DNA of 64,000 nucleotides from Thermoplasmatota archaeon (GCA_040751795.1 JBFMHR010000004.1:223959-287958), one strand, 5' to 3'. Positions 6,044-17,335 are shown, counted from the stretch's first letter. Made by a program: numbers and translations. The notes: a model not told the origin generated them from the sequence alone.

Positions 6044-7618
6044 TCAGGTCACGAGGGTCGCGGTGAAGACGAAGGCCAGGACCGCGAGGAAGAACGCGAC
6101 GAGCGGGACCCTGTACGGCCAGTGCTCGTTCAGCACCTGGCGCGCCCCGTAGTAGCCGAACGGGACGGCGGCGGCCAGCTCCAGGACGCCGGTCATCACC
6201 GCACCGCCGTCGAGGAGGAACAGGCCGTAGACGGCGAGGCCGGCCGCGAGAGTCACAGGCAGGGCGGCGACCAGGTGCGTCGACAGCTCCTTCGACCCGG
6301 TCCTCTCCCTGGCGGCCCTGACCCAGAGCAGGACGGCGCCGAGCAGCGCCACGGAGCCGGTGGCGACCCAGTCGATCGCCTCGGAGCACTCCCACGCCAG
6401 CTCAGTCGCGGTCAGCAGGAGGAGGAACCCCCCGACTGCGGCGAAGGCGTCGAGGACGGCGGCGTCCCTGTCCATGGGGTGGAACGTGGCCAGCACCACC
6501 ATCACTGCGCCGGAAATCCCGACGATCAGCGCCATGCCCACCTCCACCTCCCCGAAGTCCACCAGGACCATGGTGGCGGCCGCGACGAGCATCATCAGGA
6601 TGCCGGACGAGAGGAGGAAGTCGCCGCGGAACTCCGGGCGGTACGCGTGGACCGCCACGTAGGCGAGGATCAGTGCACCTATGATCGGGGCCAGGGTCGT
6701 GAAGGTCTCCTCGGAGTCGATCTCAGCGACCGTGAAGTGCCAGACCGCGATGAGCCCGGGGCTCACGGCCAGCGTGTAGAACACCGCCCTCACCCTGCTC
6801 GCCGGCTTCACCGGCTTGCGCGCCTTGCGCCCACCCCTTCTCATCAGGGCCCAGACCGCGATGCCTATGCCCACCGTCAGCAGGGCCAGGAACATCAGGC
6901 AGGGGATGTCCTCCAGCCAGAGGAACAGAACCAATGCGGCGGATGCGGCCACCAAGGGGACGGCAGCGCTCGACCACCCCTGCCTGGTTGGAGCAGGCGC
7001 CTCCTCGGCGGCCCCCTCCTTCCTCAGGGCGGAGACGATCCTGTACGGCCTCCCGCAGCCGGGGCAGTCGAACCCGACCTCGTCCTCCACGGACAGGTTG
7101 TCGACCTCGATCTGCTTCTTGCACGTCGGGCAGAACACGGAAACGACCCTCTTCGCCGGGGAGGCCATGACGGCTATCTCGTCCCTGACGGGCCCCCCCC
7201 TGTCCATCTGGTTGATGACCGAGGCCAGGCTCGCCTTGCGCGCAGTCACGATCTCGGAGACCTTGAGGGTCCTGGTGCCGTCAGGGTCCTCGAACGTGAC
7301 CTCGACCTCGAAGAGCTGCTGGCGCACCGAGGACGCGGCGTCCGCGCCCTTCGGCGTGACGCAGTAGGCGTTCTGCCTCCTGTCCGCTCCCTCGACGTGC
7401 CCCTTGACGCACTCGACGAGCCCGTCCTTCGCGAGCTCCTGCAGCGCGACCGCTACGTGGCTCCTGCGCAGGCCGAGGTGGTCAGACAGGCCCTTCTGCG
7501 TGACCTCGAACGGGAAGACGACATCGTCCGGCCCGCACCTGTGGAGGTACAGCTGGACGAGCACCTTCTCCCTCGCCTTGAGCCTCAGTCCCGCCTGGCC
7601 GTCCTCTCCTGCGCCCAA
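6044..7618 (-). CDS. Membrane protein with N-terminal winged-HTH, Zn ribbon (CPTC...CPGC) and ~10 TM helices
   Basis: TQKGLSDHLGLRRSHVAVALQEL..GLV helix-turn-helix and wing; two CxxC pairs; long hydrophobic C-terminal half; TTG start. Confidence 0.7.
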   Translation of the reverse strand: MGAGEDGQAGLRLKAREKVLVQLYLHRCGPDDVVFPFEVTQKGLSDHLGLRRSHVAVALQELAKDGLVECVKGHVEGADRRQNAYCVTPKGADAASSVRQQLFEVEVTFEDPDGTRTLKVSEIVTARKASLASVINQMDRGGPVRDEIAVMASPAKRVVSVFCPTCKKQIEVDNLSVEDEVGFDCPGCGRPYRIVSALRKEGAAEEAPAPTRQGWSSAAVPLVAASAALVLFLWLEDIPCLMFLALLTVGIGIAVWALMRRGGRKARKPVKPASRVRAVFYTLAVSPGLIAVWHFTVAEIDSEETFTTLAPIIGALILAYVAVHAYRPEFRGDFLLSSGILMMLVAAATMVLVDFGEVEVGMALIVGISGAVMVVLATFHPMDRDAAVLDAFAAVGGFLLLLTATELAWECSEAIDWVATGSVALLGAVLLWVRAARERTGSKELSTHLVAALPVTLAAGLAVYGLFLLDGGAVMTGVLELAAAVPFGYYGARQVLNEHWPYRVPLVAFFLAVLAFVFTATLVT

Positions 7619-7685: not shown

Positions 7686-10600
7686 TCACGACGCCTCGAA
7701 CACCAGCGGCAGGGTCTCCGACCTGAGCTCCTCGGGGTTGTACATGTCCCACGCGACGACCCCCTGGAGCGTGCTCGTGATGGGCATCTCCGCCACTAGC
7801 GAGTAGTCGAACTCGACGGCGGCGCCCGACACCACGTCGGTGATGTACACCACGACCTGGCGGTCGTTGCAGTCGTACGAGGATATGACGCCCTGGGCGT
7901 CGAGCGCGTCGAACTCGGAGAGGTCGAACGCGAAGCCCATGGGCGCGCGCAGGTCGACGAGGACCATCTTGAGCATCTCCGCGGTCCCGTTGTACAGGAG
8001 GTAGAGGTGGGCCCTGAGCCTGTCGTCGACCGATATCGTCGTCGTGTCGTATGTGACCTCGAGGGTCAGGAACGGGGACGACTCCGGCTCGTCTGGCCAG
8101 GGGACGTACTGCTCCAGGAAGACCGAGTAGAGGACGGACCCGTCCCCCGTGCAGGAGACGGTCACGTTGGTGACGTTCGCGAGGTAGGGCCTGAGGTCGA
8201 CGAGGTAGGTGACGTCCCTGTTGAACTCGCTCATGTCGATGGTCTCGACGACCGAGCCCTCGACGAGGACCTGGACCTGCACATCCTCGACGGAGTTCTC
8301 CCCGGCGACCGCGTCGAGGGCGTGGAACGCCACCACCGTGTCCTGGGTGGACGACCAGCCCCCGAGCTCGCCCCTGTGGTCGAGGAGGTACTTGACGGCC
8401 CCTTGGACGGTGGCGTGGTGCCCAGTCTCCCCGTGGAGGGCCATGGCGGCGTAGCCCGTGGTCTCTATGATCCTCGGGGAGGAGCCTTCCCAGACGTAGT
8501 CGCCGTCGGAGATGAGGTTCACGCCGCCGCTCCAGTGCACGGTGCCGTTGTCGGCGATCTTGAGCTCCTCGAGCCTCTCCGCGATGTCGGCGCGGAGCGC
8601 GGAGGAGCCGTCGCCGGCCTGCAGCAGCAGGAGCGAGAGCGAGAGGCTGTACGGGTCGTCCTGTATCGTGGAGACCTCGTCCTCGACGAACTCGATCGCC
8701 GCCTGGATGTGCGGGTCGTCGCCCGGGACCCCCGAGTGCAGGAGCGCCCTCGCGATGTACCCTGTCGCCGCGACCTCCTTGGACTGGAGGACGGGGTTGT
8801 TGAACTCGTAGATGCCCCAGTCCGGGAACTCCCACGAGCCGTCGTCCTGCTGGATCGACATGAGCCAGCTCTGCATGTCCGTGACGATGTCCTCGTCGAG
8901 CCCGAAGCCCGCGTTGATGGCGTCCTGGAAGGCGATGAGGCCCCAGGAGGTCAGCCACGGGTGCACGTCCTCGTCCCCCGGGAACCAGACGATGCCCCTG
9001 CCCTCGCCGTTGTTCGCCTCGAGCAGGTACATCAGCTCGTGCTGGAGCCCCTGGTTCACGATGCTCTCGTATTCGAACATCATCTCGGGGGTGGCGCCGA
9101 GCTCCACGACGGTGGCGTAGGCCAGTATGTCAATCGAGAGCATCGACAGGGACTGCTCCCCGCATCCGGACACGTGCTGGATGAACTCGTCCACGCCCTC
9201 GAGGAGGACGGCGTCTATGCCGCCCTGGACCTTGACCCAAGCGTTCGCGCTGCCCTCGACCATGTCAGGCTGGAGGTAGAGGGTGTGCTCCGCGCTGCCG
9301 TCGCCGACCTCGCCGTTGTAGAGCGTCTCGACCCTCTTGCCGTCGGGCACGACCTCCATCGGCCTGATGACGGCGTCCGAGGCCTCCGGCGAGGAGGCGA
9401 ACACCGAGACCGTGTGCCACCCGACCTTCTCGGCGACGATCGTGAACGACACGGAGGTGACGTAGTTGGCCGGCACGGTCACTTCCTGCGCCGCGGGGGA
9501 GAGCAGGGTGAGCCATGTCTCGTCGGCCAGCGTCACGTCGACGACCTGCTCCGTGTCGAGGTAGTTGTAGACCATGATGCTGAGCGGGAACTCGTCGCCC
9601 CTGACGACCGACGCCGGTATGTCCGGCTCGACGAAGAAGGGCTGGAACACCGTCACGGACCCGGAGCCCGTGCCGATCTGCCCGTCTGCTGTGGAGGCGA
9701 TGACGTCCACCTGCCACGACGTGATCGAGTCAGGGGCGGTGAGGGATATGTTGGCCCAGCCTCCCTCGTCCGTCAGGAGGCAGGGGTTCCAGTACCACGT
9801 CTCAGGGAAGTACTGGCGCACTATCGACGGCCTTGAGGCCGAGCCTCCGCCGGCGTCGGTCGAGGTCTCGTCGCCGTAGGCGGTGTCCGTGTCCCAGCCG
9901 AAGTCCATGGAGGCCTCCTGAGGCACCATGTTCCACTCATCGGCGTTAGGGTTCCTCGGATCGAACTCGCCGTCCTGGCTGCTGCTCGTCCCGAACCCGA
10001 GGGTCATGACGTAGACCGCCGCCATGCCCGCCAATGCGAGGGCCACGACGACGACCGCGAGGGCGAGGACGGGCACGGCCGTCCTCCTCCCCTTCGTGCC
10101 TATGGCGATCATGAGCCCCAGCATTGCGCAGAGGTAGACGGCGAACCAGTATCCCATGGTCGCGTCCTCCCTGATCTGCTCGGCGGCGGCCAGGTTCTCC
10201 GGCCATGTGGTCGTCACGCGCGCCTCGTCCGTCTCGGGGATGACCTCCGAGGTGTCGGAGGGGAGGGCGCCGACGCCCGCGTATACGTACGTGAGTATCT
10301 GGTACTGGGGGATGACGAACTCCGCGTCGAGCCCGAAGATGATCTCCTCGAAGCCCTGGAACATGCTCCCGACCTCGTAGACGGCCTCGTCCACGACGGA
10401 GACGCCGAGCGCGGCCACCGCCGGCGACCCGGAGTATTCGGCGTAGAACGACAGGCCGACCTCGTCCCTCGGGTAGTAGGAATCGTTGTCGGCGCTCACA
10501 GAGACGGACAGCGTGGACGAGCCGCCCACGGAGAAGGTCACGGCGTCCCTCGTGACGCCCATGTCGGCCTCGATCTTGTAGACCCTGAGCTGCGCGAACG

Positions 10601-12125
10601 GCTCGGCGTCGGGCCCCATGGTGAGCTGCAGGGAGGCCTGCCCGTCGTCCAGCTGGACGACGCCCCTGTCCACGAGGTAGCCGCGAGAGACCAGGTCCCA
10701 GTACACGTTCCTGGTCATGGAGTCGCCGGAGTACATGATGTCGAAGGAGGCCGTGTCGCCGACGTCGTATGACGCCTGGTCGGCCACGACCTTCAGGCCC
10801 GTCGCGGACTCGACGTCGACGTAGACCACGGCTTCGCCGGAGGCGCTGCTCCCGCGGACTCGCGCGGAGGTCTGGCCATCATATGTGAATGTCAGCGCTG
10901 CGACTCCCCTCCCGTCGGTCACGGAGGAGGCCTCGTTGACGTAGTAGTTGCCCTTCAAGAGGCCAAGCTGGACGGTCGCGTTGGCCACCGGCTCGCCGTT
11001 GGGGGACCTTGCAATCACGTAGTACCTGGACTGCATCCCGTCGACGCAGCTGTCGGTGAGCACCGAGAGCACTAGTCCGCTCGGCGCCACGGGGATGACC
11101 CTGTACCTGACCTCCGAGTGGCCTGCGGTGTCCGTCACGGTGAGGTTGAGCTGGATGTACCCGTTCCCCCCGGTCTCCGACAGGCCCACGGCATACTCCA
11201 CCGCCGGGACGGAGAAGACAGCCTCGCCGTCGTAGAGGGAGAACGTGCCGGTGTAGTACGTCTCCCAGACACCCAGATATACGTTCGCCTCGACGTCCAC
11301 CGTGCCGGCGACGGCCTCGCCGAAGAAGTACTCGGCCGAGACGACCCCGTTGATGGGGTCGTCGACCTCGTACCAGTCTTTGGTGCCCAGGAGGTCCACC
11401 CGGAACTTGGGGAGGACGTAGTCCTTGACCGCCAGGGCCTTGGTGACGGTCCTCTCGCCGATCGTGGCGGATATCGTGTAAGTCCCCTGGTTGAGCTGGT
11501 CCGACAGCCACAGGTCGTACGCGCATATGCCGTACCCGTCGGGGGAGAGGAGCTTCTTGAAGATCTTGTCCCCGTTGGGGTCGAGCACCTCGGCGAGGAG
11601 CTGGGACTCCTGGGGAAGCGGGTCCATGCCCGCGTATGTCAGGAACCTCATGTGTATGGTGTCGCCGGGCTTGTAGACGGGCTTGTCGGTGGTGATCACG
11701 ATCCTGACGCTGTCGTCGAGCACGGTGGTGGTCTCGACGACGTCCACGCCCGAGTTGACGACCAGCTTGACCTTGCCCGCGGCCGCGGGGAACTCTATGG
11801 TCGGGGCGGCGGAGCCGTCGGCGCCCGTCCTGCCCGACCAGACGAGAGCGTCCGAGTCGTCGGTGACGAGCCTCACGTCGACCTCCTGACCTCCGACGGG
11901 CTCGCCGTCGCCGTCCATGGCGAAGACCATGATCGTCGACGGGCCGCCCGCGGCGACCCGGTCGGGCACGTAGGCCACCAGGTTGAGCTTGTTCGCGAGG
12001 TAGGCGTCGTCGACGTCCTCCAGGGCTATCCCGATGGCCCCGACGGCCATCAGGGCCGTGATGAATGCCACCACGAGCCTCTCCTTCCTGTCCTTCTCGA
12101 CCAACCGGGCGACGGCCTTCCTCAT
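7686..12125 (-). CDS. Alpha-2-macroglobulin / thioester-containing protein (TEP), membrane-anchored
   Basis: TDKPVYKPGD, YVLPKF, RQYFPETWYW, PDSITSW, FQPFFV..P.SVVRGDE, GCGEQ thioester (9153-9164), GGWSSTQDTVVAFHAL, C-terminal MVLVDL..PMGF...WDMYNPE receptor-binding-like domain. Confidence 0.93.
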   Translation of the reverse strand: MRKAVARLVEKDRKERLVVAFITALMAVGAIGIALEDVDDAYLANKLNLVAYVPDRVAAGGPSTIMVFAMDGDGEPVGGQEVDVRLVTDDSDALVWSGRTGADGSAAPTIEFPAAAGKVKLVVNSGVDVVETTTVLDDSVRIVITTDKPVYKPGDTIHMRFLTYAGMDPLPQESQLLAEVLDPNGDKIFKKLLSPDGYGICAYDLWLSDQLNQGTYTISATIGERTVTKALAVKDYVLPKFRVDLLGTKDWYEVDDPINGVVSAEYFFGEAVAGTVDVEANVYLGVWETYYTGTFSLYDGEAVFSVPAVEYAVGLSETGGNGYIQLNLTVTDTAGHSEVRYRVIPVAPSGLVLSVLTDSCVDGMQSRYYVIARSPNGEPVANATVQLGLLKGNYYVNEASSVTDGRGVAALTFTYDGQTSARVRGSSASGEAVVYVDVESATGLKVVADQASYDVGDTASFDIMYSGDSMTRNVYWDLVSRGYLVDRGVVQLDDGQASLQLTMGPDAEPFAQLRVYKIEADMGVTRDAVTFSVGGSSTLSVSVSADNDSYYPRDEVGLSFYAEYSGSPAVAALGVSVVDEAVYEVGSMFQGFEEIIFGLDAEFVIPQYQILTYVYAGVGALPSDTSEVIPETDEARVTTTWPENLAAAEQIREDATMGYWFAVYLCAMLGLMIAIGTKGRRTAVPVLALAVVVVALALAGMAAVYVMTLGFGTSSSQDGEFDPRNPNADEWNMVPQEASMDFGWDTDTAYGDETSTDAGGGSASRPSIVRQYFPETWYWNPCLLTDEGGWANISLTAPDSITSWQVDVIASTADGQIGTGSGSVTVFQPFFVEPDIPASVVRGDEFPLSIMVYNYLDTEQVVDVTLADETWLTLLSPAAQEVTVPANYVTSVSFTIVAEKVGWHTVSVFASSPEASDAVIRPMEVVPDGKRVETLYNGEVGDGSAEHTLYLQPDMVEGSANAWVKVQGGIDAVLLEGVDEFIQHVSGCGEQSLSMLSIDILAYATVVELGATPEMMFEYESIVNQGLQHELMYLLEANNGEGRGIVWFPGDEDVHPWLTSWGLIAFQDAINAGFGLDEDIVTDMQSWLMSIQQDDGSWEFPDWGIYEFNNPVLQSKEVAATGYIARALLHSGVPGDDPHIQAAIEFVEDEVSTIQDDPYSLSLSLLLLQAGDGSSALRADIAERLEELKIADNGTVHWSGGVNLISDGDYVWEGSSPRIIETTGYAAMALHGETGHHATVQGAVKYLLDHRGELGGWSSTQDTVVAFHALDAVAGENSVEDVQVQVLVEGSVVETIDMSEFNRDVTYLVDLRPYLANVTNVTVSCTGDGSVLYSVFLEQYVPWPDEPESSPFLTLEVTYDTTTISVDDRLRAHLYLLYNGTAEMLKMVLVDLRAPMGFAFDLSEFDALDAQGVISSYDCNDRQVVVYITDVVSGAAVEFDYSLVAEMPITSTLQGVVAWDMYNPEELRSETLPLVFEAS

Positions 12126-14232: not shown

Positions 14233-14389
14233 ATTATGTGCCTAGCCATTTATTAATTACCATATATTTATTGATTCCCATGAGAATGCGCCGATATTTT
14301 ATCAGAGATGATATAATAATCGCGGGCGGGGGAGCCGCCGCGCGCGCGCGACGCGTCGCCCAGACCAGCGCGCCCGCGCGGTCAACAAT

Positions 14390-14400
14390 GCTTTTATATA
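14390..14400 (+). promoter_or_regulatory. TATA box of rpl44e operon
   Basis: CTTTTATATA in a GC-rich context ~45 nt upstream of ATG 14446. Confidence 0.6.
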
Positions 14401-14445
14401 GGTTCCCTCTTACTCGTGTCCTGCCCCCAGGGGCCGCTGATTCGC

Positions 14446-14727
14446 ATGAAGATGCCGAGGGTACGGAAGGAGTTCTGTCCGAAGTGCAAGAAGCACACGG
14501 ACCACGAGGTCGAGAGGGTCAAGACCAGGCCCAGGAGCGAGCTCAAGTGGGGTCAGAGGCGGTACAGGCGGGCGACGAGCGGGTACGGCGGTTTCCCGAG
14601 GCCCAAGTACGAGGGCCGCCAGAAGCCGACCACCAAGGTGGCGCTCAGGTACAGGTGCAAGACCTGCAAGAAGGCCCACCAGAGGACCTGCTTCAGGGCC
14701 AAGGTTTTCGAGCTCAAGGAGGCCTGA
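14446..14727 (+). CDS. rpl44e: 50S ribosomal protein L44e
   Basis: [36 protein letters not shown]. Confidence 0.96.
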
Positions 14728-14729
14728 GC

Positions 14730-14915
14730 ATGGAGAGGATCCCGACTCCCAAGAGCAAGTTCATCAACGTCAAGTGTCAGGACTGCGGCAACGAGCAGAT
14801 AGCCTTCGACAGGCCCGCGACGCACGTCAAGTGCAACGTGTGCGGCGCCACGCTGGTCAAGCCGGCGGGCGGCAAGGGGCAGGTCAGGGGGCAGCTGCTC
14901 GGAGAGGTCCAGTAA
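14730..14915 (+). CDS. rps27e: 30S ribosomal protein S27e
   Basis: [18 protein letters not shown]...[16 protein letters not shown]; conserved operon position. Confidence 0.95.
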
Positions 14916-17222: not shown

Positions 17223-17335
17223 CCCGACTTAGCTCAGACTGGCTAGAGCGGCTGACTGTAGTGTGGATATCGGCAAGACCGATTGCAGTCGCTGAGATCA
17301 GCAGGCCCCCGGTTCAAATCCGGGAGTCGGGACCA
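17223..17335 (+). tRNA. tRNA-Tyr(GTA) with ~35-nt intron (17262-17296), CCA encoded
   Basis: Acceptor CCCGACT/AGTCGGG-ACCA, anticodon arm GCTGA-CTGTAG|A-TCAGC interrupted at 37/38, T loop GGTTCAAATCC. Confidence 0.93.

What the first reader, a model, noticed from the sequence alone, without database searches (positions are those of the whole stretch)
7686..12125. Animal-like thioester protein (alpha-2-macroglobulin/TEP) in an archaeon
Seen: intact GCGEQ thioester; Asn at the specificity position ~120 aa downstream (YEFNNP, compare LLNNA in human A2M; complement C3 has His); YVLPKF, RQYFPETWYW, PDSITSW, GGWSSTQDTVVA and a C-terminal receptor-binding-like domain. Known: these motifs match metazoan A2M/CD109/insect TEPs, whereas proteobacterial A2M (YfhM) is a lipoprotein usually encoded next to pbpC. 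No lipobox or pbpC is seen here. Inferred: a covalent protease trap or opsonin-like surface defence protein, relevant to the origin of TEPs.
Basis: partly seen in the sequence, partly recalled or inferred. Interest (0 to 1): 0.8.

Follow-up and report, generated by a model that had tools for sequence, protein, structure and literature searches.

The report
Membrane-threaded archaeal alpha-2-macroglobulin thioester protein
An archaeon of the Thermoplasmata group encodes a complete thioester protein of the alpha-2-macroglobulin type whose protease "bait" loop contains two membrane-spanning helices, an arrangement I found described in none of the papers searched, and it is often followed by a gene for a membrane-bound DNA-binding protein.

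Summary
Window 7686-12125 (-) is an intact 1479-aa A2M/TEP protein (MG2, MG3, MG4, bait-region domain, A2M, TED with GCGEQ, receptor-type C-terminal domain). It has no lipobox and no pbpC. It is much closer to human A2M (222 bits) than to Salmonella A2M (22 bits).

- Archaeal CxEQ A2M homologues are already in print (PMC8416519).
- This protein belongs to an archaeal family found in 31 of 401 genomes of its phylum.
- In my trees, fish A2Ms group with a different prokaryotic clade. An AU test rejects joining them to this family (p 0.0015).

In 103 of 103 complete family members the bait position holds two hydrophobic helices. The loop joining them is short and net positive in 101 of 103. A roughly 70-aa acidic linker follows and is predicted disordered. 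A gene for a winged-helix, zinc-ribbon, polytopic membrane protein lies directly downstream in 11 of 19 assessable loci.

Best reading (0.58): a membrane-integrated covalent protease trap whose linker is the bait. A protease-sensing role through the neighbouring gene is the bolder rival. I rate it a new variant of a known kind, interest about 0.55. Nothing has been tested biochemically.

The parts
7686..12125 (-). Whole gene: 1479-aa A2M/TEP-type thioester protein (P0001)
   Evidence: ORF and translation. Pfam domain set. PDB phmmer against human A2M 6.6e-65.
12021..12077 (-). N-terminal hydrophobic helix, residues 17-35, after a basic N-terminus: signal anchor or uncleaved signal peptide
   Evidence: Kyte-Doolittle mean 2.62. 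AF2 helix at residues 2-36. Coordinates checked. Whether it is cleaved was not determined.
10374..11702 (-). MG2 to bait-region-domain part of the macroglobulin array (residues 142-584)
   Evidence: Pfam MG2 142-226, MG3 236-282, MG4/Big_1 about 367-428, A2M_BRD 444-584. All-beta in both AF2 models.
10101..10157 (-). Bait-region hydrophobic helix 1 (residues 657-675; model helix 641-677)
   Evidence: Two such helices occur in 103 of 103 complete family members.
10071..10100 (-). Short basic loop between the two helices (residues 676-685, net charge +3), inferred cytoplasmic
   Evidence: loop median 7 aa, net positive in 101 of 103 members. The positive-inside rule is established knowledge. The topology is inferred.
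9999..10070 (-). Bait-region hydrophobic helix 2 (residues 686-709)
   Evidence: Kyte-Doolittle mean 2.87. AF2 helix 684-709 and 686-709.
9831..9998 (-). Acidic, Gly/Asp/Ser-rich linker (residues 710-765): candidate bait proper
   Evidence: pLDDT about 27-32 and no secondary structure in both models. Family median length 70 aa, net negative in 95 of 103. Among the least conserved parts, 0.30 against 0.51-0.66 for the domains. It ends where HMMER begins the alignment to human A2M at residue 730.
9528..9800 (-). A2M (MG7) domain, residues 776-866, preceded by RQYFPETWYW at 770-779
   Evidence: Pfam PF00207 2.3e-25. F494, P495, E496, W498 and W500 of alignment A1 are invariant.
8316..9203 (-). 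Thioester domain (TED), residues 975-1270
   Evidence: Pfam PF07678 3.7e-28. Helical in the model.
9153..9167 (-). GCGEQ thioester motif (Cys988, Gln991)
   Evidence: G, C, G, E and Q are invariant in all 74 rows of alignment A1.
8799..8801 (-). Asn1109, aligned with the first Asn of LLNNA in human A2M
   Evidence: HMMER alignment. In 66 family rows the column holds N in 39 and T in 23. Equivalence to the catalytic His of C3 is recalled.
7728..7970 (-). C-terminal MG8 / receptor-binding-type domain (residues 1386-1466)
   Evidence: Pfam PF07677 7.2e-6, 27 bits against a cut-off of 21.7.
6044..7618 (-). Linked downstream gene, 67 nt after the stop codon: 524-aa protein with a winged helix-turn-helix, a CPTC...CPGC zinc ribbon and about 9 hydrophobic helices
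   Evidence: Pfam HTH_Crp_2 4.4e-7. Invariant wHTH and zinc-ribbon residues in 43 homologues. Directly downstream on the same strand in 11 of 19 assessable loci. 13 of its 47 homologue clusters share a contig length with an A2M cluster.

Best explanation
The gene encodes a functional thioester protein of the canonical alpha-2-macroglobulin/TEP type. It belongs to an archaeal (Thermoplasmatota) family that is held in the cytoplasmic membrane by a two-helix hairpin inserted in the bait region.

Inferred topology:
- The basic N-terminus is inside and helix 17-35 crosses the membrane.
- MG1-MG6 lie outside.
- Helix 657-675 goes in, the basic loop 676-685 is cytoplasmic, and helix 686-709 comes out.
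- An exposed acidic disordered linker (710-765) follows.
- MG6b-MG7-CUB-TED-MG8 lie outside.

Proposed mechanism (inferred from the family, not shown here):
- A foreign protease that reaches the cell surface cuts the exposed linker.
- Cleavage releases the latch that keeps the TED thioester (Cys988-Gln991) shielded.
- The thioester then reacts with amines of the protease. This A2M-like chemistry is suggested by Asn rather than His at the aligned position.
- The protease is held covalently at the membrane.

The role would be comparable to lipid-anchored YfhM in bacteria and GPI-anchored CD109 in animals. The downstream wHTH membrane protein probably belongs to the same module, with a regulatory or sensing role. 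How it would act is unknown.
For: Shown:
- The A2M/TEP domain set is complete.
- GCGEQ is invariant in all 74 aligned rows.
- PDB sequence matches are to human A2M 6.6e-65, A2ML1 1.4e-58 and CD109 7.6e-54.
- The AF2 model of residues 280-1479 has pLDDT 79.8. Its best Foldseek matches are native-state A2ML1, CD109 and A2M, with TMq 0.42-0.45. Most protease- or methylamine-activated A2M, A2ML1 and CD109 forms give 0.31-0.33, though endopeptidase-induced A2M chain 6tav_A gives 0.38.
- Two hydrophobic 19-mers lie in the bait position in 103 of 103 complete family members. The joining loop is net positive in 101 of 103. The following linker is net negative in 95 of 103.
- The 25 relatives outside the family that carry the FPET motif have no such segment.
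- Both AF2 models give two long helices (641-677 and 684-709) followed by a disordered stretch 709-765.
- The hairpin and linker are the least conserved parts of the protein, as expected of anchors and baits.
- The linker ends where the alignment to human A2M resumes, at FPETW.
- The family forms one clade with 100% SH-type support.

Inferred: the topology (positive-inside rule), the trigger and the chemistry.
Against: - No biochemistry exists for any member. No RNA evidence was found.
- Membrane helices were called with a crude Kyte-Doolittle window. No dedicated topology predictor was available. Single false segments do occur with this method: the fish A2M rows were labelled with one.
- Asn1109 is not conserved. 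The column holds N in 39 of 66 rows and T in 23, so the amine-directed chemistry is uncertain.
- A simple anchor would be expected at a terminus. Its placement inside the bait, together with the linked wHTH gene, hints at a role beyond trapping.
- The partner gene is missing from 8 of 19 assessable loci.
- Distribution is patchy: 31 of 401 genomes of the phylum.
Confidence: 0.58

Rival explanations
1. Protease (or envelope-damage) sensor. The A2M ectodomain is the input module. Cleavage of the linker, or the conformational change that follows, is passed through the bait-region hairpin to the co-encoded wHTH, zinc-ribbon, polytopic membrane protein. That protein then changes transcription. Trapping may be secondary or may coexist with sensing.
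For: - The wHTH membrane protein gene lies directly downstream on the same strand in 11 of 19 assessable loci, at down to 30-35% identity.
- 13 of its 47 homologue clusters share a contig length with an A2M cluster.
- The full-length partner was matched only next to such genes. In one search the only whole-profile match among the rows listed was the window's own.
- In the related GCFEQ clade, 31 of 88 complete rows have 2-6 hydrophobic segments in the bait region. Some of these carry a zf-HC2 anti-sigma N-terminus: P0151 and 3 of 28 scanned. This is an independent link between this ectodomain and transcription control.
Against: - 8 of 19 loci lack the partner yet keep the hairpin.
- The cytoplasmic loop is only about 7 residues long, so it offers little surface for signalling.
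- Gene adjacency alone is weak evidence of contact.
- The wHTH N-domain is a widespread paralogous module, found in 218 of 401 genomes.
Confidence: 0.2
2. Covalent adhesin or tagging protein. The thioester serves to attach the cell covalently to a surface, a partner cell or a virus particle, in the manner of an opsonin or a thioester adhesin. Protease trapping is not its purpose.
For: - The thioester motif is intact and the predicted location is the cell surface.
- TEP1, C3 and C4 are also significant matches, at 1e-34 to 4e-25.
- Makarova et al. discuss archaeal A2M homologues in the setting of inter-microbial conflict (passages).
Against: - The best sequence and fold matches are the protease-trapping members A2M, A2ML1 and CD109, not C3 or TEP1.
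- Asn or Thr, not His, occupies the aligned position. His appears in only 3 of 66 rows, in the adjacent column.
- A long disordered, variable linker at the bait position fits protease triggering.
Confidence: 0.12
3. The two hydrophobic helices are not membrane-spanning. They would be a buried or oligomerisation element of a secreted protein, analogous to the helical anaphylatoxin domain that occupies the same insertion point in C3, C4 and C5.
For: - The insertion site is the same as that of the ANA domain (recalled).
- AF2 cannot tell a membrane helix from a buried one.
Against: - The Kyte-Doolittle means are high (up to 2.9-3.4 over 19 residues), while the helix sequences themselves are poorly conserved.
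- The connecting loop is basic in 101 of 103 members. This is the signature of a membrane hairpin, not of a folded domain.
- No ANATO Pfam hit was found.
Confidence: 0.06

Closest known systems
Vertebrate alpha-2-macroglobulin, A2ML1 and CD109 (thioester protease traps)
   Same: - Same domain order and Pfam models.
- GCGEQ and FPETW are identical.
- Asn aligns with the LLNNA Asn of human A2M.
- These are the best sequence matches (6.6e-65 to 7.6e-54) and the best fold matches, in their native state.
- The C-terminal MG8/receptor-type domain is present.
   Different: - Identity is only about 19-20% in the structural alignment.
- The protein has 7 Cys, so it lacks the disulphide-rich pattern.
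- The short soluble bait is replaced by a two-helix membrane hairpin plus a roughly 56-aa acidic linker.
- An N-terminal hydrophobic helix is present. There is no GPI-type C-terminal tail; the sequence ends ...LPLVFEAS.
- Fish A2Ms fall in a different clade.
Methanosarcinales-type archaeal A2M homologues (Methanolobus, Methanococcoides, ANME-2) and their unnamed prokaryotic kin
   Same: - GCGEQ, FPETW and the same Pfam set.
- 33-35% identity over the C-terminal half.
- Together with this family they form one GCGEQ superclade, supported at 97 and 100.
- Archaeal A2M homologues of this kind are in print (PMC8416519).
   Different: - They have only an N-terminal signal, some with a lipobox-like Cys.
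- No hydrophobic segment lies in the bait region in any of those scanned.
- They group with fish A2M, not with the window's family.
Bacterial type I A2M (E. coli YfhM/ECAM, Salmonella A2M)
   Same: - A thioester protein anchored at the outer face of the cytoplasmic membrane and thought to guard the envelope. This function is recalled from the ECAM/SaA2M literature cited.
- The overall fold is recognisable: Foldseek E 2e-43, TMq 0.37.
   Different: - Sequence similarity is marginal: 2.2e-4, and 10.7 bits to E. coli YfhM.
- Those proteins use a lipobox anchor and are linked to pbpC. Here there is no lipobox, no pbpC and no bMG-type Pfam domains.
- Their motif is CLEQ, not GCGEQ.
GCFEQ/FPETL clade of large prokaryotic A2M-like proteins (unnamed in the databases available here)
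   Same: - Same Pfam set and 30-35% identity over the C-terminal 715 aa.
- 31 of 88 complete rows also carry hydrophobic segments in the bait region.
   Different: - The motif is GCFEQ instead of GCGEQ.
- They have 2-6 hydrophobic segments rather than a fixed pair.
- Many have lipobox-like N-termini, and some have zf-HC2 anti-sigma N-termini.
- They form a separate clade with support 100.

Membership tests
A2M/TEP superfamily, canonical (eukaryote-type) architecture | Array of macroglobulin domains with an A2M (MG7) domain | tested here: met
   Pfam MG2, MG3, MG4, A2M_BRD and A2M all pass their cut-offs. Beta-sandwich array in both AF2 models.
A2M/TEP superfamily, canonical (eukaryote-type) architecture | Thioester domain with a CxEQ motif | tested here: met
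   TED_complement 3.7e-28. GCGEQ at 987-991, invariant in 74 rows.
A2M/TEP superfamily, canonical (eukaryote-type) architecture | Protease-sensitive bait region inserted in MG6, before FPETW | tested here: inconclusive
   A variable, disordered, acidic linker lies at the right place. It is preceded by a two-helix hydrophobic hairpin that I know of in no described member. Protease sensitivity was not tested.
A2M/TEP superfamily, canonical (eukaryote-type) architecture | C-terminal MG8 / receptor-binding-type domain | tested here: met
   PF07677, 27 bits against a cut-off of 21.7.
A2M/TEP superfamily, canonical (eukaryote-type) architecture | Overall fold like solved native A2M-family structures | tested here: met
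   Foldseek top hits are native A2ML1, CD109, A2M, C5 and TEP1, with E 2e-59 to 1e-50.
A2M/TEP superfamily, canonical (eukaryote-type) architecture | A thioester actually forms and reacts on activation | not testable with these tools
   Needs methylamine, autolysis and protease-adduct assays.
Bacterial type I A2M (YfhM/ECAM) | N-terminal lipobox (lipoprotein anchor) | tested here: not met
   The first Cys is residue 201. E. coli YfhM begins with ...LALAGC.
Bacterial type I A2M (YfhM/ECAM) | Genetic linkage to pbpC | tested here: not met
   Neighbours. PF00912 not found in the own genome, which is 92.8% complete. In E. coli pbpC abuts yfhM.
Bacterial type I A2M (YfhM/ECAM) | Bacterial-type MG domains and close sequence similarity | tested here: not met
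   No bMG Pfam hits. Salmonella A2M scores 2.2e-4 against human A2M at 6.6e-65.
Complement C3/C4/C5 | Anaphylatoxin domain at the bait position and a C345C/NTR C-terminal domain | tested here: not met
   Neither Pfam family appears. The protein ends after the MG8-type domain.
Complement C3/C4/C5 | Catalytic His about 115 residues after the thioester Cys (recalled) | tested here: not met
   Asn1109 aligns with the Asn of human A2M. His occurs in only 3 of 66 family rows, in the neighbouring column.
CD109-type membrane-bound TEP | C-terminal GPI-anchor signal (hydrophobic tail; recalled) | tested here: not met
   No hydrophobic segment lies after residue 709. The C-terminus is ...RSETLPLVFEAS.

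The most novel reading that the evidence does not exclude
The bait-region membrane hairpin turns an A2M-type thioester protein into a transmembrane protease sensor. Cutting the extracellular linker would be reported across the membrane to the co-encoded winged-helix, zinc-ribbon membrane protein, which would switch on a defence regulon. The zf-HC2 anti-sigma fusions, and the multi-helix bait insertions seen in 31 of 88 complete rows of the related GCFEQ clade, would be the bacterial version of the same principle. Together they would form a widespread, undescribed class of prokaryotic 'A2M receptors'. It would also mean that placing a functional module at the bait site, as complement did with the anaphylatoxin domain, is an old and recurrent feature of this fold.
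Probability: 0.17. Interest if true: 0.82.

Novelty: new variant of a known kind. Interest (0 to 1): 0.55.

Why it matters
A2M/TEP proteins are textbook effectors of animal innate immunity, and their prokaryotic history is poorly mapped.

This locus shows an archaeal lineage in which the full canonical architecture and the thioester motif are kept while the bait region has been rebuilt into a membrane hairpin followed by a disordered linker. If the topology holds, three things follow:
- It would be a third way of tethering a thioester trap to a cell, besides the bacterial lipid anchor and the GPI anchor of CD109.
- It would be the only one of the three that places the trigger site at the membrane surface.
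- These archaea are thought to be bounded by little more than a membrane and an S-layer (recalled). The arrangement would give a concrete, testable model for how they protect or monitor their surface against foreign proteases.

The linked wHTH membrane protein and the anti-sigma-fused bacterial relatives raise the possibility that this fold is also used as a sensor.

For the origin of animal TEPs the result is sobering. This family is a sister branch. The hairpin-less prokaryotic GCGEQ clade is the closer relative of the vertebrate A2Ms tested.

Tried and rejected
**Complex prediction.** I tested the hairpin (residues 630-720) against the partner's membrane part (residues 205-524). The verdict was 'no answer', score 0.00. 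This is no evidence either way.

**RNA evidence.** The look-up of sequencing runs listed no RNA holder. The DNA holders had shares of 0.22 or less in sediment, freshwater and soil metagenomes. I did not lay any reads and draw no conclusion on habitat or expression.

**Protein atlas.** The search with the partner protein gave only a 0.76 hit to an unnamed bacterial cluster, which is uninformative.

**AU test.** The test under the LG+C20 model did not finish in three runs. I repeated it with LG+G4 on 30 of the 49 rows. The grouping tested was chosen after seeing the tree.

**An early label I corrected.** I first called the FPETL clade 'thioester-less' (labels). That was wrong, because my pattern allowed only G, A, S or L at the x of CxEQ. 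In fact 101 of 105 rows have GCFEQ, 2 have GCMEQ and 2 have neither.

**YfhM as outgroup.** Its branch is very long (5.17), so I do not trust the root.

**Genome-contig scan.** With P0001 it returned only 2 loci.

**Literature.**
- searched alpha-2-macroglobulin + archaea + thioester and found 6 papers.
- searched macroglobulin / bait region / transmembrane / archaea and found 105 papers holding at least 3 terms. I saw the listing of 15.
- searched anti-sigma / macroglobulin / zf-HC2 and found 6 papers (listing only).
- searched macroglobulin + Thermoplasmat and found 4 papers, 2 of them listed.
- I read passages of PMC8416519, 10.1101/2021.09.22.461418, 10.1101/2025.09.22.677704 (unrelated CAGE complex), 10.1101/2022.08.08.503129 (Patescibacteria A2M) and PMC9245690 (irrelevant).
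- None mentions a membrane hairpin in a bait region or Thermoplasmatota A2Ms.
- The supplementary tables of PMC8416519, which list its 27 archaeal proteins, were not opened because supplements are closed. They could include relatives of this family.

**Rejected reading: recent transfer from animals or a pseudogene.** The family spans 93% down to about 35% identity across many archaeal contigs and keeps the motif invariant.

**Taxon names.** Names for the unnamed clades could not be obtained.

Full report
**What is there**

Window 7686-12125 on the minus strand is one uninterrupted ORF of 1479 codons with an ATG start.

Pfam recognises the complete canonical alpha-2-macroglobulin/TEP set:
- MG2 (residues 142-226)
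- MG3 (236-282)
- MG4/Big_1 (about 367-428)
- A2M bait-region domain (444-584)
- A2M/MG7 (776-866)
- TED_complement (975-1270, 3.7e-28)
- A2M_recep (1386-1466, 27 bits against a cut-off of 21.7)

NCBIfam gave nothing above its cut-offs.

**Which kind of A2M**

Against all PDB sequences the whole protein matches as follows:
- human A2M, 6.6e-65 (222 bits)
- A2ML1, 1.4e-58
- CD109, 7.6e-54
- mosquito TEP1, about 1e-34
- C4, about 1e-27
- C3, about 4e-25
- the bacterial Salmonella A2M, only 2.2e-4 (22 bits)

E. coli YfhM, fetched from the K-12 record where it abuts pbpC, gives a 10.7-bit partial match and carries CLEQ and a lipobox.

The window protein has its first Cys at residue 201 and only 7 Cys in all. 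Its neighbours are not pbpC. The transglycosylase family PF00912 was not found in the 92.8%-complete genome.

HMMER aligns the query's FNN with the LNN of LLNNA in human A2M. That this is the position of the catalytic His of C3 is my recollection, not a result.

**How special that is**

1. *Prior literature.* Makarova et al. [quoted passage not shown]
   - These are mainly Halobacteria and Methanomicrobia.
   - The authors regard the Methanolobus proteins as bacterial-like transfers.
   - The main text does not mention Thermoplasma-group archaea or bait-region membrane helices.
   - I could not see its supplementary tables.

2. *The protein has many relatives.*
   - The word-index search listed 120 of 567 hits.
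   - P0002-P0094 are 93% down to about 35% identical over essentially full length.
   - Where a source names them they are Thermoplasmata, Thermoplasmatota, 'Methanobacteriota' or 'Euryarchaeota' MAGs, several already labelled 'alpha-2-macroglobulin family protein'.
   - Two genome contigs titled Thermoplasmata and Thermoplasmatota archaeon carry 86% and 70% identical copies.

3. *Distribution.*
   - In a sample of 401 genomes of the window's phylum, 31 (25 of 162 genera) have a match at E<=1e-20.
   - Only one other genome of the window's own class does.
   - The distribution is therefore patchy.
   - The window's genome has a single copy.

4. *Closer prokaryotic relatives exist.* An exhaustive HMMER search with residues 765-1479 found 11421 clusters at E<=1e-3 and 1580 at E<=1e-30.
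   - After the family itself come more than 100 clusters of 1500-1800-aa proteins at 300-370 bits.
   - Human A2M scores 190 bits on the same query.
   - Fish A2Ms score 155-180 bits.
   - P0191's 331 bits is the sum over two tandem copies in a mis-joined fish gene model.

5. *Phylogeny.* I built trees of the C-terminal region.
   - Rows were kept only if their match spanned nearly the whole 715-aa query. This gave 167 rows including YfhM.
   - FastTree and IQ-TREE with LG+C20+F+G4 on 49 of them agree on three clades.
   - Clade 1 is the window's family: 42 and 19 rows, support 100 in both trees.
   - Clade 2 contains the Methanosarcinales-type proteins, six unnamed prokaryotic proteins (some with lipobox-like N-termini) and the fish A2Ms. 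Support is 100 in both trees. The fish rows sit beside P0227 with support 98.
   - Clade 3 is the large 1500-1800-aa clade (support 100).
   - Clades 1 and 2 join with support 97 and 100.
   - Forcing the fish A2Ms together with clade 1 costs 54.8 log-likelihood units and is rejected (p-AU 0.0015; LG+G4, 30 rows). That grouping was named after seeing the tree. The C20 version of the test did not finish.
   - Caveats: the only animal sequences I could bring in were cyprinid-type fish A2Ms; the YfhM root is on a very long branch; many rows have deviant composition.
   - Within these limits the family is a sister branch, not the nearest prokaryotic kin of animal A2Ms.

A correction of my own labels: clade 3, which I first labelled 'noTE', has GCFEQ in 101 of 105 rows and GCMEQ in 2. 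It is a CxEQ clade.

Between the bait-region domain and FPETW the protein has two strongly hydrophobic stretches, 657-675 and 686-709. A basic loop of ten residues (676-685) joins them, and a 56-residue acidic Gly/Asp/Ser/Thr-rich stretch follows.

This is a family character:
- With a 19-residue Kyte-Doolittle window (>=1.5), all 94 proteins P0001-P0094 have at least one such segment within 200 residues before FPETW, and 86 have two.
- None of the 25 more distant proteins that carry the FPET motif has any. These are Methanosarcinales-type and GCFEQ-type proteins.
- At >=1.3, 103 of 103 complete family members have two. I started from 110 listed members; 7 with fewer than 600 residues before the motif were dropped.
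- The joining loop has a median of 7 residues (range 4-24) and is net positive in 101 of 103.
- The following linker has a median of 70 residues (range 51-161), is net negative in 95 of 103, and is rich in G, D, S, A, T, E and P.

The helix sequences themselves, the loop and the linker are the least conserved parts. Mean majority-residue frequency is 0.30-0.38, against 0.51-0.66 for the folded domains.

Two AlphaFold2 models built on family alignments agree on this region:
- One covers residues 280-1479 (pLDDT 79.8, pTM 0.68). The other covers residues 1-800 (pLDDT 78.1).
- Both give long helices at about 641-677 and 684-709.
- Both then give a stretch with pLDDT about 27-32 and no secondary structure up to residue 764-765.
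- The N-terminal residues 2-36 form a helix.

Most activated A2M, A2ML1 and CD109 forms are lower (0.31-0.33), although endopeptidase-induced A2M chain 6tav_A gives 0.38. ECAM and Salmonella A2M rank 35 and 42-43.

The alignment to human A2M resumes at its residue 730, TVRKYFPETW. From recollection this is just past the human bait region. The hairpin plus linker therefore occupies the bait position.

**Topology and mechanism (inferred)**

A basic N-terminus, a first hydrophobic helix, and a hairpin with a basic connecting loop give a simple positive-inside topology. Both large lobes lie outside and only the loop and the N-terminus lie inside.

The exposed, disordered, fast-evolving acidic linker next to the membrane is the obvious candidate for the bait. 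By analogy with A2M, A2ML1, CD109 and ECAM, I propose these steps:
- Cleavage of the linker unlatches the molecule.
- The Cys988-Gln991 thioester becomes exposed.
- The attacking protease becomes covalently bound.
- It stays at the cell surface, because the N-terminal half remains anchored by the hairpin.

None of this has been tested for any member. Asn1109 is only moderately conserved: N in 39 of 66 rows, T in 23, and His in 3 of 66 in the next column. The nucleophile preference is therefore open.

**The neighbour**

The next gene starts 67 nt after the stop codon on the same strand, at 6044-7618. It encodes a 524-aa protein with three parts:
- an N-terminal winged helix (HTH_Crp_2 4.4e-7)
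- an invariant CPTC...CPGC zinc ribbon
- about nine hydrophobic helices

A homologue lies directly downstream of the A2M gene on the same strand in 11 of 19 assessable loci:
- Present in the window, L002, L003, L024, L025, L026, L027, L029, L037 and L040, and as a fragment in L036.
- Absent from L030-L035, L038 and L039.
- L028 ends at the gene and cannot be assessed.

Loci without the neighbour still have the hairpin where the region is complete. One genome (G129) has one copy of each kind.

The neighbour's family has 47 clusters (31-90% identity). Thirteen of them report the same longest-contig length as an A2M cluster. I take this to mean the same contigs, which is an inference.

Its N-terminal wHTH module alone is widespread. 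The profile search matched 218 of 401 genomes, almost all over profile positions about 7-145 only, including two further copies in the window's genome.

A structure-based test of contact between the hairpin and the neighbour's membrane part gave no answer.

**A parallel in relatives**

In the GCFEQ clade, 31 of 88 complete rows have 2-6 hydrophobic segments in the same bait position. P0151 and 3 of 28 further proteins begin with a zf-HC2 anti-sigma-factor zinc finger.

Membrane insertions at the bait site, and links between this ectodomain and transcription factors, thus recur. This keeps the sensor reading alive. The lipobox-like and anti-sigma N-termini suggest bacteria, which is an inference.

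**Novelty and verdict**

My four literature searches and the passages read found no description of a membrane hairpin in an A2M bait region, of Thermoplasmatota A2Ms, or of anti-sigma-A2M fusions.

The protein is a member of a known superfamily, and A2M homologues in archaea are already known. The membrane-threaded bait and the conserved wHTH membrane neighbour make it a new variant of a known kind.

The 'animal-like protein in an archaeon' angle is neither new nor phylogenetically privileged. It is not rated low either, because the architecture is unusual, conserved and directly testable.

Noticed in passing
Proteins P0148-P0253 (relatives), not in the window: In the related GCFEQ/FPETL clade, 31 of 88 complete rows carry 2-6 hydrophobic segments in the bait region. 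P0151 and 3 of 28 further proteins start with a zf-HC2 anti-sigma zinc finger. Others have lipobox-like N-termini. A2M-like ectodomains fused to anti-sigma modules appeared in none of the papers listed.
   Followed up: partly
Window 6044-7618 (-); own genome C23:110308-110673 and C1:84588-84938: The N-terminal wHTH module (about 140 aa) of the neighbour protein is a widespread paralogous module. It matched 218 of 401 genomes of the phylum, in proteins of about 300-1100 aa, including two more copies in the window's own genome.
   Followed up: partly
G015:C10:31661-33343, G190:C165:8067-9725, G174:C4:20213-21850, G004:C39:15581-17173, G146:C51, G083:C4, G016:C78: Several genomes of the phylum hold a second, much larger A2M-like open frame (2389-2560 aa). 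It is only 25-29% identical to residues of about 751-1352 of the window protein. This looks like a further, unexamined family.
   Followed up: no
L030:2317-5850 (-) and L031:1961-3742 (-): In loci that lack the wHTH neighbour, the gene downstream of the hairpin-A2M is another large protein with an N-terminal hydrophobic helix (1177 aa and 593 aa). Genome G129 has one A2M copy of each locus type.
   Followed up: no
L003:5980-10433: The 70%-identical A2M gene of this Thermoplasmatota MAG is split over three overlapping frames (479, 765 and 335 aa). Its neighbour gene is also split. This points to frameshifts or assembly errors.
   Followed up: no
L034:1935-2468 (+): Next to the 3' end of a hairpin-A2M gene, on the opposite strand, lies an ArsR-like HTH protein with two hydrophobic segments (177 aa). 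This is another small membrane-associated HTH protein at such a locus.
   Followed up: no
Window 17223-17335 (+): Rfam calls a tRNA of 110 nt (53.8 bits). ARAGORN calls an 85-nt tRNA with an odd two-base anticodon in the same place. This is probably an intron-containing archaeal tRNA.
   Followed up: no
Window 14238-14915 (+): The 225-aa ORF matches ribosomal protein S27e only at residues 171-220. The real gene is probably much shorter than the listed ORF.
   Followed up: no
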